The notes below the pieces were generated by a model that was not told the DNA's origin, searched no databases, and saw nothing but the letters and a program-made list of their open reading frames with translations. This document shows positions 39,275 through 39,954 of a stretch of 64,000 bases of DNA, in pieces. The stretch lies in NCBI RefSeq assembly GCF_045037415.1, contig NZ_CP173438.1; one strand, 5' to 3'. Position numbers and translations under genes: made by a program. This DNA is from Escherichia coli. Its GTDB lineage: Bacteria > Pseudomonadota > Gammaproteobacteria > Enterobacterales > Enterobacteriaceae. Each line of letters begins with the position of its first letter. The stretch's first letter is position 1.

Positions 39275-39589
39275 TCATGACTGTGCTGCGAAGCTCAGCG
39301 CGTCTTCCAGCGCCGCAAACGGATCCACCTCCGGCTTATCCTCATCCTCGCCCCAGCAGAGCATGGCGTCCTTCAGTGCAACATTCATCCCCTGTGCCCC
39401 AAAAACCGCTTTCACGATCTGTGCATTACGGATATCCCCGCGCTCATCACCCAGCGGGGATACCCTGTCGAACTCCATCCACATCATCGCCTCGCTCACA
39501 CTCAGGCTGTGCCGCAGTTCGGATAAGGTGCGCCCCAGACGGAGCGCAAGTCGCATCAGAAAGCGAATTTCCGGGCGGGCTACTTTTTT
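39275..39589 (-). CDS. T: T segment of tail assembly chaperone G-T, reached by programmed -1 frameshift
   Basis: -1 frame downstream of slippery heptamer A-AAA-AAG (39583-39589) stays open for about 100 codons to stop at 39275. Confidence 0.7.
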   Translation of the reverse strand, partial: KKVARPEIRFLMRLALRLGRTLSELRHSLSVSEAMMWMEFDRVSPLGDERGDIRNAQIVKAVFGAQGMNVALKDAMLCWGEDEDKPEVDPFAALEDALSFAAQS

Positions 39590-39954
39590 CTGGCCGACTC
39601 TGCATCAGCGATCAGTTCCAGTGCCTGACGCAGCAACCGGGCATGTACCGGACCATAGACGGCCAGCACCTGCTCACGGTCGTCCGGAGCGAACACCCGC
39701 TGCAGATCCGTATCACACAGGACATCGCAGAACAGCGTCACATCCGCTTCTAGGTTACGGCGGGTTTTCGCCACCACCGACAGGGTATCGTCATCCTCTC
39801 CATCACCATTGAGCACTTCCTGCCACAGATACCAGGCCTCTGCCGAAGGCTCCCGCAGCACCACGCTGACATTACCCCATTCCGGCACCTTCACCGTTTT
39901 ATGACGAAACCCTGACAGTCTGGCCAGCGCCAGCGTTTTCAGATCCTTTTTCAT
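39580..39954 (-). CDS. G: tail assembly chaperone G
   Basis: Start at internal ATG (MKKDLKTLALARL), 124 aa; ends ...SARKK-stop with slippery site A AAA AAG abutting stop codon. Confidence 0.75.
   Translation of the reverse strand: MKKDLKTLALARLSGFRHKTVKVPEWGNVSVVLREPSAEAWYLWQEVLNGDGEDDDTLSVVAKTRRNLEADVTLFCDVLCDTDLQRVFAPDDREQVLAVYGPVHARLLRQALELIADAESARKK

What the first reader, a model, noticed from the sequence alone, without database searches (positions are those of the whole stretch)
39560..39600. Programmed -1 ribosomal frameshift site for the G/GT tail chaperone
Gene G ends ...GCC AGA AAA AAG TAG; the heptamer A-AAA-AAG (as in dnaX) directly precedes the stop, and the -1 frame stays open for about 100 further codons (T segment) up to just before the tape-measure gene. 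This is the conserved recoding mechanism of long-tailed phages and supports the tail gene assignments.
Basis: partly seen in the sequence, partly recalled or inferred. Interest (0 to 1): 0.3.

Follow-up and report, generated by a model that had tools for sequence, protein, structure and literature searches.

The report
Known phage tail-chaperone frameshift site
This is the usual ribosome-slipping signal that lets a long-tailed E. coli prophage make a short and a long form of its tail-assembly helper protein, and this exact sequence was already shown in 2013 to shift frame about 7% of the time, so it is real but ordinary.

Summary
A 124-codon gene (39954..39580) ends ...GCC AGA AAA AAG TAG. The heptamer A AAA AAG (39589..39583) is in the right register and abuts the stop. 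The -1 frame runs 102 more codons to TGA at 39277..39275, 47 nt before the tape-measure ATG (39227).

The upstream ORF is Pfam Phage_TAC_1 (1.7e-61), the family of HK97 gp13. The -1 extension is Phage_tail_T (1.5e-18), the family of lambda T. The pair lies between the major tail gene and the tape-measure gene. HK97 and HK544 homologues are deposited as joined "-1 frameshift" genes.

Twelve relatives from seven host genera keep a slip-prone A AAG in the same overlap, and all 80 close viral relatives keep AAAAAAG-TAGC.

Decisively, a 75-nt cassette identical to window 39535..39609 was tested by Antonov et al. 2013 (NAR, Table S2). It gave 7% ± 0.79 -1 frameshifting in an E. coli GST-MBP reporter.

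I found no dnaX-type stimulators: no upstream Shine-Dalgarno-like element and no well-spaced downstream hairpin. RefSeq and GenBank annotate T as a separate 93-aa ORF, which is probably an annotation shortcut.

Verdict: real, interpretation supported, already known, low interest.

The parts
39580..39954 (-). Gene G, the tail assembly chaperone. 124 codons plus TAG; this is the product of normal frame-0 translation.
   Evidence: Translation. Pfam Phage_TAC_1 at 1.7e-61, covering the profile end to end. phrog_344 'tail assembly chaperone' at 2.5e-46. Anti-Shine-Dalgarno pairing upstream of the ATG is -8.4 kcal/mol.
39583..39589 (-). Slippery heptamer A AAA AAG, codons Lys123-Lys124 of G.
   Evidence: In frame as X XXY YYZ. 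Invariant in 80 of 80 close viral relatives.
39580..39582 (-). Frame-0 stop codon TAG directly after the heptamer, followed by C (TAGC).
   Evidence: The same heptamer-then-TAG layout occurs in vB_EcoS-689R5, vB_EcoM-606R7 and Vibrio phage Pm34.
39275..39583 (-). T segment in the -1 frame: 102 codons (VARPEIRFLM...AAQS) plus TGA. Fused to G it gives a 226-aa GT protein.
   Evidence: Pfam Phage_tail_T at 1.5e-18; lambda T and the HK97 T segment hit the same model. phrog_337 and phrog_14766. Variation among alleles is highest at the third position of -1-frame codons (27 against 13 and 11).
39275..39556 (-). The 93-aa ORF that starts at an internal ATG and is annotated in RefSeq and GenBank as a separate 'tail assembly protein T'.
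   Evidence: Anti-Shine-Dalgarno pairing is only -3.5 kcal/mol. The peptide motif P-x-x-x-F-L-M is conserved upstream of this Met across the family.
39535..39609 (-). 75 nt identical to the reporter cassette 'Phage_TAC, frameshift ID 15618692' of Antonov et al. 2013, measured at 7% ± 0.79.
   Evidence: Supplementary Table S2 of PMC3711429. Exact match with 0 mismatches.
39969..40685 (-). Major tail tube gene with a C-terminal Ig-like domain, immediately upstream of G.
   Evidence: phrog_158 'major tail protein' at 1.7e-116. Pfam Ig_3 above its cutoff; tail-tube models Phage_tail_2 and Phage_TTP_11 hit just below their cutoffs. PGAP calls it 'major tail subunit'.
35985..39227 (-). Tape-measure gene (1080 aa), immediately downstream of T.
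   Evidence: Pfam Phage_HK97_TLTM at 5e-90, TMP_3 and Tape_meas_lam_C. phrog_339.
39240..39262 (-). Hairpin followed by a T run (AACCGCTGAGGCGGTTTTTTTA) between the T stop and the tape-measure start. It looks like an intrinsic terminator or attenuator. Whether it belongs to the recoding unit is uncertain.
   Evidence: Read directly; the consensus scan did not flag it. HK97 and HK544 records annotate a putative rho-independent terminator at the equivalent position before gene H.

Best explanation
This is the G/GT programmed -1 ribosomal frameshift of an HK97-type tail module in a lambdoid E. coli prophage.

Most ribosomes translate G (124 aa) and terminate at TAG. A few percent slip back one base on A AAA AAG, where the Lys-tRNAs re-pair from AAA-AAG to AAA-AAA. 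They then read GTA GCC ... for 102 more codons, making a 226-aa GT fusion.

By analogy with lambda, the G part binds the tape-measure protein and the T part recruits the major tail protein. The fixed low GT:G ratio is what tail assembly needs, and neither protein ends up in the virion.

The slip appears to rely on the heptamer alone, possibly helped by the adjacent weak stop context TAG-C.

- **Shown here:** the sequence anatomy, family membership and conservation.
- **Shown in the literature:** about 7% shifting on this exact sequence.
- **Inferred:** the roles of G and GT in this phage, and any contribution of the stop codon.
For: **Anatomy.**

**Families.** G is Phage_TAC_1 and T is Phage_tail_T. 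HK97 gp13 and its T segment, and lambda T, hit the same models. The fused-protein profile phrog_14766 spans the junction.

**Synteny.** Major tail gene, G, T, tape measure, in that order.

**Deposited precedent.** HK97 and HK544 homologues (63% identical G) are deposited as joined CDS labelled '-1 frameshift' or 'programmed frameshift'.

**Conservation of the slip site.** Twelve relatives from E. coli, Aeromonas, Cronobacter, Klebsiella, Vibrio, Serratia and Burkholderia phages all keep an in-frame A AAG in the overlap. It appears as A AAA AAG, G GGA AAG, G GAA AAG or GCA AAG. All have a -1 extension of 95-103 codons with a conserved junction peptide K-(A)-V...P...F-L-M. All 80 IMG/VR relatives keep AAAAAAG-TAGC.

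**Coding signal in the -1 frame.** Allelic variation is highest at the third position of -1-frame codons in T.

**No independent start.** The internal ATG has weak Shine-Dalgarno pairing, -3.5 kcal/mol against -6.6 to -10.3 for neighbouring genes.

**Published experiment.** The identical 75-nt cassette gave 7% ± 0.79 GST-MBP fusion in E. coli. A mEp390-type cassette with G GGA AAG gave 6% (PMC3711429 Table S2).

**Mechanism and role of G/GT in lambda.** Review PMC5009743.
Against: - No dnaX-like stimulators were found. Upstream anti-Shine-Dalgarno pairing is -3.0 kcal/mol, weaker than 89% of shuffles.
- The 146-nt region folds no better than shuffles, z = -0.30.
- The only local hairpin, GCGCUCCG/GGGGCGC, lies about 34 nt downstream, inside the conserved LALRLGR codons, and is lost in the Serratia and Burkholderia relatives.
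- RefSeq and GenBank records of this prophage annotate T as a separate gene.
- The reporter assay does not itself separate ribosomal from transcriptional slippage.
- GT has not been shown in virion assembly for this particular prophage.
Confidence: 0.93

Rival explanations
1. T is made on its own, by initiation or reinitiation at the internal ATG at 39556, as public annotation draws it. In that case the heptamer is incidental.
For: PGAP and GenBank annotate a separate 93-aa 'phage tail assembly protein T' from this ATG. The ATG lies only 24 nt after the G stop, so termination-reinitiation is conceivable.
Against: - Anti-Shine-Dalgarno pairing is weak, -3.5 kcal/mol.
- The -1-frame peptide upstream of the Met (P-x-x-x-F-L-M) is conserved across genera, although it would be untranslated under this model.
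- A fused-protein family exists (phrog_14766), and HK97 and HK544 are deposited as joined frameshift genes.
- The reporter fusion formed at 7% on this exact sequence.
Confidence: 0.04
2. The fusion arises by transcriptional slippage. RNA polymerase adds one A in the A6 run, giving an mRNA that encodes the same GT protein.
For: An extra A in AGAAAAAAG yields exactly the same protein sequence. Neither the published GST-MBP assay nor mass spectrometry would separate the two routes (inference).
Against: - The run is only six A.
- Documented bacterial transcriptional realignment uses runs of more than seven A, as stated in PMC3711429.
- The homologous mEp390-type cassette has G GGA AAG, with only three A, yet shifts at 6%, nearly the same as here.
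- HK97, Cronobacter and Klebsiella relatives have no long homopolymer at all.
Confidence: 0.02
3. It is a decayed gene: a single GT gene split by a frameshift mutation in a dead prophage, with no recoding.
For: The prophage carries other damage, including a lom-like gene split by ISEc12 and truncated tail-fibre genes.
Against: - The same two-frame layout and heptamer are present in 80 of 80 viral relatives.
- They are also present in functional phages such as 2851, YYZ-2008 and the Stx-converting phages, and across seven host genera.
- G ends at the full length of its Pfam model, 124 of 124 positions.
Confidence: 0.01

Closest known systems
HK97 gp13/gp14 (G/GT) -1 frameshift, also annotated in HK544 and other HK97-like phages (Hendrixvirinae)
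   Same: Same Pfam families for both halves, Phage_TAC_1 and Phage_tail_T. G is 63% identical to the HK544 homologue. Same position between the major tail and tape-measure genes, same -1 direction, and similar fusion length (226 aa here; 224 aa by my calculation from the HK97 CDS span). HK97 also has a putative terminator before gene H.
   Different: The shift site differs. HK97 reads G GAA AAG in frame 0, 15 nt before its TAA stop, with a 49-nt overlap. Here the site is the canonical A AAA AAG abutting TAG, with a 22-nt overlap. HK97 also has an extra moron gene (gp15) between T and H that is absent here.
Phage lambda G/GT frameshift (Levin et al. 1993; Xu et al. 2004, 2013, 2014)
   Same: Same logic, gene order and -1 direction, with a low efficiency of a few percent. 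The T domain falls in the same Pfam family, PF06223.
   Different: Lambda G belongs to a different family, Phage_TAC_2 / TIGR01674. BLASTP finds no pairwise similarity for G or T. The lambda heptamer is G GGA AAG (stated in PMC5009743).
E. coli dnaX gamma/tau frameshift
   Same: Identical heptamer A AAA AAG and -1 direction, with the same tRNA-Lys slippage.
   Different: dnaX shifts at about 50% and uses an upstream Shine-Dalgarno-like element and a nearby downstream stem-loop. Neither is found here, and the measured efficiency is 7%. In dnaX the shifted product is the shorter one; here it is the longer one.
'Phage_TAC' cluster 862991913 of Antonov et al. 2013 (GeneTack), frameshift ID 15618692
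   Same: The tested insert is identical to window 39535..39609. This is the same element, not merely a relative.
   Different: None at the sequence level. The source genome of their insert was not traced.

Membership tests
G/GT tail assembly chaperone with programmed -1 frameshift (Xu et al. 2004 class) | Two overlapping ORFs located between the major tail protein gene and the tape-measure gene | tested here: met
   Gene order is major tail (39969..40685), G (39580..39954), T (39275..39583), tape measure (35985..39227), all on the minus strand.
G/GT tail assembly chaperone with programmed -1 frameshift (Xu et al. 2004 class) | The downstream ORF is in the -1 frame relative to G, and the overlap contains a slippery sequence in the correct register | tested here: met
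   A AAA AAG is in the X XXY YYZ register. The -1 frame is open from 22 nt before the G stop to 102 codons after it.
G/GT tail assembly chaperone with programmed -1 frameshift (Xu et al. 2004 class) | The frameshift fusion protein is actually made, at a low fixed level | not testable with these tools
   Published data cover it. The identical 75-nt cassette gave 7% ± 0.79 fusion in an E. coli GST-MBP reporter (PMC3711429 Table S2). This was not measured in the phage context.
G/GT tail assembly chaperone with programmed -1 frameshift (Xu et al. 2004 class) | The arrangement is conserved among diverged relatives even where the slip sequence changes | tested here: met
   Twelve relatives down to 33% identity in G keep an A AAG-containing site and a -1 extension of 95-103 codons.
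G/GT tail assembly chaperone with programmed -1 frameshift (Xu et al. 2004 class) | G and GT are required for tail assembly and absent from virions | not testable with these tools
   Known for lambda (PMC5009743). Inferred here.
Pfam Phage_TAC_1 (PF06222; HK97 gp13 family) | Score above the gathering threshold over the full model | tested here: met
   206 bits against a cutoff of 25, covering model positions 1-124 of 124. HK97 gp13 scores 203 bits on the same model.
Pfam Phage_tail_T (PF06223; lambda T family) | Score above the gathering threshold | tested here: met
   67.4 bits against a cutoff of 25.9, covering model positions 1-71 of 73. Lambda T scores 54.1 bits and the HK97 T segment 73.4 bits. 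The NCBIfam lambda-specific equivalogs TIGR01674 and TIGR01715 do not hit the window GT, so it is not a lambda G or T equivalog.
dnaX-type frameshift signal | A AAA AAG heptamer | tested here: met
dnaX-type frameshift signal | Shine-Dalgarno-like stimulator about 10 nt upstream | tested here: not met
   The best anti-Shine-Dalgarno duplex in the 25 nt upstream is -3.0 kcal/mol, weaker than 89% of shuffles.
dnaX-type frameshift signal | Stable stem-loop a few nucleotides downstream | tested here: not met
   No excess folding, z = -0.30. The only local hairpin lies about 34 nt downstream and is not conserved in distant relatives.

The most novel reading that the evidence does not exclude
The most novel reading still open concerns the stop codon. 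The TAG-C abutting the heptamer may not be incidental. It could be the tuning element that sets the GT:G ratio in this sub-lineage.

With AAG in the P site and a poorly recognised stop in the A site, a single-tRNA P-site slip (A AAG to AAA G) would compete with slow termination. This would replace the RNA-structure and Shine-Dalgarno stimulators used by dnaX.

The recurrence of 'A AAG + stop' in five of thirteen sampled family members, and of GCA AAG TAA in a Klebsiella phage that lacks a full heptamer, is compatible with this. It was not tested.
Probability: 0.3. Interest if true: 0.2.

Novelty: already known. Interest (0 to 1): 0.08.

Why it matters
It confirms the tail-module gene calls in this prophage. 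It also shows that the public annotation of T as a stand-alone 93-aa gene is probably incomplete: the true product is most likely a 226-aa GT fusion made from a joined CDS. A near-identical segment (at least 90% identity) is present in 1,245 of 5,426 complete E. coli genomes. Beyond that annotation correction it adds nothing new, because the mechanism, the family and even the efficiency of this exact sequence are published.

Tried and rejected
- **Bare heptamer as a signal.** AAAAAAG occurs 22 times in the window against about 13 expected, so it is not informative alone. Only the frame and ORF context singles out this copy.
- **Downstream stimulatory structure.** The fold of 39480-39625 is no better than shuffles. 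A GCGCUCCG/GGGGCGC hairpin recurs in several relatives, but it coincides with the conserved LALR(L/M)GR codons, lies 33-40 nt from the slip site, and is absent in the Serratia and Burkholderia phages. I rejected it as a classical stimulator.
- **Upstream Shine-Dalgarno-like stimulator.** None found.
- **Direct similarity to lambda G and T.** BLASTP found none. Only the Pfam T profile links them. NCBIfam has no model that hits the GT fusion.
- **Xu et al. 2004.** I tried to read it, but it is not held. A search for Stx-phage-specific literature on this site found nothing.
- **Second in-frame A AAA AAG at 18682..18676 (-).** The host ORF looks non-genic and the -1 frame is only 47 codons, so I dismissed it.

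Full report
**Observation**

The feature lies on the minus strand, which the finding did not state. A 124-codon ORF starts at ATG 39954 and ends ...GCC AGA AAA AAG TAG.

- The heptamer A AAA AAG occupies 39589..39583 in the X XXY YYZ register of that ORF.
- The stop TAG (39582..39580) follows directly.
- The -1 frame is open from 22 nt before the G stop. After the shift it runs 102 codons (VARPEIRFLMRLALRLGRTL...AAQS) to TGA at 39277..39275.
- That TGA lies 47 nt upstream of the ATG of a 1080-aa ORF at 39227.

The heptamer string alone is unremarkable: 22 copies in the window against 12.8 ± 3.6 in shuffles. Of those 22, only this one combines more than 100 open frame-0 codons upstream with more than 100 open -1 codons downstream.

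**What the genes are**

| Element | Best family hits |
|---|---|
| Upstream ORF (G) | Pfam Phage_TAC_1, 1.7e-61, full model length; phrog_344 'tail assembly chaperone' |
| -1 extension (T) | Pfam Phage_tail_T, 1.5e-18; phrog_337 |
| Gene before G | phrog_158 'major tail protein', 1.7e-116, with an Ig-like C-terminal domain |
| Gene after T | Phage_HK97_TLTM, TMP_3, Tape_meas_lam_C (tape measure) |

- phrog_14766 is a 224-position profile of a fused 'tail protein'. It aligns G to positions 2-122 and T to positions 125-224, so it runs straight across the proposed junction.
- Further upstream lie the tail completion, HK97-gp10-like, head closure, head-tail connector and portal genes.
- The segment is 100% identical to prophages in many E. 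coli chromosomes. A match of at least 90% identity is found in 1,245 of 5,426 complete genomes.
- It is 98-99% identical to the tail modules of long-tailed Stx-converting phages such as 2851, YYZ-2008 and BP-4795.
- PGAP annotation of an identical prophage confirms the whole late operon, from terminase to J, a lom-like gene and the tail fibres.

**How public records draw it**

RefSeq and GenBank records of this prophage type list G and a separate 93-aa 'tail assembly protein T' starting at the internal ATG 39556.

The homologues in HK97 (NC_002167) and HK544 are instead deposited as a joined CDS, labelled 'translated due to a -1 frameshift' and 'programmed frameshift'. HK544 G is 63% identical to the window G.

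HK97 gp13 and its T segment hit the same two Pfam models. Lambda T hits the same T model, whereas lambda G belongs to Phage_TAC_2. BLASTP finds no pairwise similarity to lambda G or T.

The module is therefore HK97-type in G and shares the T domain family with lambda.

**Comparative test of the recoding site**

I located the G end and the -1 frame in twelve relatives, spanning 99% down to 33% identity in G.

| Relatives | Site in frame 0 | Position relative to the G stop |
|---|---|---|
| window, phage 2851, vB_EcoS-689R5, vB_EcoM-606R7, Vibrio Pm34 | A AAA AAG | directly before TAG |
| Serratia OS31, Burkholderia phi644-2 | A AAA AAG | 24 and 30 nt before the stop |
| mEp390 | G GGA AAG | 3 nt before the stop |
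| HK97, HK544, Aeromonas AsXd-1 | G GAA AAG | 15 nt before the stop |
| Cronobacter ENT39118 | G GAA AAG | 3 nt before the stop |
| Klebsiella Kp4885-3 | GCA AAG TAA | directly before the stop |

- The common denominator is an in-frame A AAG inside the overlap.
- All have a -1 extension of 95-103 codons.
- The peptide just after the shift, ...K-(A)-V-x-x-P-x-x-x-F-L-M-x-L-A-L-R-x-G-(R/K)-T-L, is conserved, including residues upstream of the Met that annotators use as the T start.
- All 80 IMG/VR relatives retrieved with G carry AAAAAAG followed by TAGC.
- Among 34 same-length alleles, variable sites in T are most frequent at the third position of -1-frame codons, 27 against 13 and 11.
- The internal ATG has poor anti-Shine-Dalgarno complementarity, -3.5 kcal/mol. 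The G, tape-measure and major tail starts score -8.4, -6.6 and -10.3.

Together these points argue that T is translated by read-in from G, not on its own.

**Direct experimental evidence already published**

Antonov, Coakley, Atkins, Baranov and Borodovsky (NAR 2013, PMC3711429) describe a 'phage tail assembly chaperone' cluster of 41 predicted frameshift genes similar to HK97. They tested two of them in a GST-MBP reporter in E. coli and found 6% and 7% frameshifting.

Their Supplementary Table S2 gives the inserts. [quoted passage not shown] This string matches window 39535..39609 (-) with no mismatch.

The other insert carries G GGA AAG CCG TAA, the mEp390-type site, and gave 6%.

**Mechanism**

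*Shown.* The heptamer, the frames, the family membership and the conservation are shown here. About 7% -1 shifting on this sequence in E. coli is shown in the literature.

*From established knowledge* (review PMC5009743):
- A AAG is highly shift-prone in E. coli.
- In lambda the G part of G and GT binds the tape-measure protein. The T part binds the major tail protein and recruits it to polymerise.
- The GT:G ratio of about 1:30 is critical, and neither protein is in the virion.

*Inferred for this prophage.* The same roles are assumed for its G and GT.

*Stimulators.* I looked for dnaX-type stimulators and found none.
- The 25 nt upstream pair with the anti-Shine-Dalgarno sequence more weakly than most shuffles.
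- The region folds no better than shuffles, z = -0.30.
- The one recurrent local hairpin is about 34 nt downstream, inside conserved codons, and is lost in distant relatives.

This fits a modest efficiency that depends on the heptamer alone.

*Stop codon.* The stop directly after the heptamer, in a TAG-C context, might add a P-site slippage route that competes with termination. That is speculation, supported only by the recurrence of 'A AAG + stop' in the family.

**Rivals**

- **Independent initiation of T.** This is what the annotation implies. It is disfavoured by the weak Shine-Dalgarno pairing, the conserved peptide upstream of the Met, the fused-protein family and the reporter result.
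- **Transcriptional slippage on the A6 run.** This would give the same protein, and the reporter does not exclude it. But the run is short, and relatives with G GGA AAG shift just as well, at 6%.
- **Pseudogenisation.** This is excluded by the conservation in functional phages and across genera.

**Comparison and novelty**

This is a member of the conserved G/GT frameshift class of long-tailed phages, in its HK97 (Phage_TAC_1) branch. It uses the dnaX/IS-type heptamer but lacks the dnaX accessory signals.

It is already known at the level of mechanism, family and this exact sequence. The only practical value is an annotation correction, a joined 226-aa GT CDS in place of a stand-alone T, together with support for the tail gene calls.

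Interest is low.

Noticed in passing
window 42219..44804 (-), repeats at 42685..43217: The portal gene is unusually long at 861 aa. The Pfam Phage_portal domain covers only residues 54-382. The C-terminal half holds 3.3 tandem copies of a 162-bp (54-aa) unit at 95% identity. PGAP labels the whole ORF 'phage portal protein'. The function of the repeat-bearing extension is unknown to me.
   Followed up: partly
window 39240..39262 (-): A hairpin followed by a T run (AACCGCTGAGGCGGTTTTTTTA) sits in the 47-nt gap between the T stop and the tape-measure start. The consensus scan did not flag it. HK97 and HK544 records annotate a putative rho-independent terminator at the equivalent place before gene H. 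It could attenuate transcription into the tape-measure gene.
   Followed up: partly
window 40708..40722 (-): A terminator-like hairpin (CCCGCCGCGTGCGGG followed by TTTTTTATTA) lies between the gp17-like tail completion gene and the major tail gene. HK97 has a putative terminator annotated at the same junction.
   Followed up: no
L088 (HK97) about 1320-1345; also L084, L089, L090, L091: In the deposited frame of HK97 gp13 the shift region reads CGG GAA AAG. That is G GAA AAG, not a canonical X XXY YYZ heptamer. Cronobacter ENT39118 has the same type, and Klebsiella Kp4885-3 has only GCA AAG TAA. The family constant is A AAG rather than a full heptamer.
   Followed up: partly
window 26863..29165 (-): An IS21-family element (ISEc12 istA/istB, 513 and 249 aa) is inserted in the prophage lom-like outer-membrane gene. 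Several tail-fibre genes downstream are truncated in the identical annotated prophage. The prophage may therefore be partly defective.
   Followed up: no
window 45016..46953 (-): The 645-aa ORF annotated as 'major capsid protein' lies upstream of the portal gene in transcription order (terminase, capsid, portal). This is the reverse of the usual portal-protease-capsid order, and the size suggests a fusion with another domain.
   Followed up: no
window 18676..18682 (-): A second A AAA AAG has a long open frame 0 upstream (119 codons), a stop 7 codons later, and a -1 frame open for 47 codons. The host ORF (18652..19026) has an odd sequence and lies just upstream of a Rha-like regulator gene. It is probably non-coding and a chance occurrence.
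   Followed up: partly
one of loci L004-L083 (IMG/VR relatives): In one of 62 parsed relatives the -1 frame stays open for 319 codons instead of 102. The T stop may be lost or the sequence rearranged. I did not identify which locus it was.
   Followed up: no
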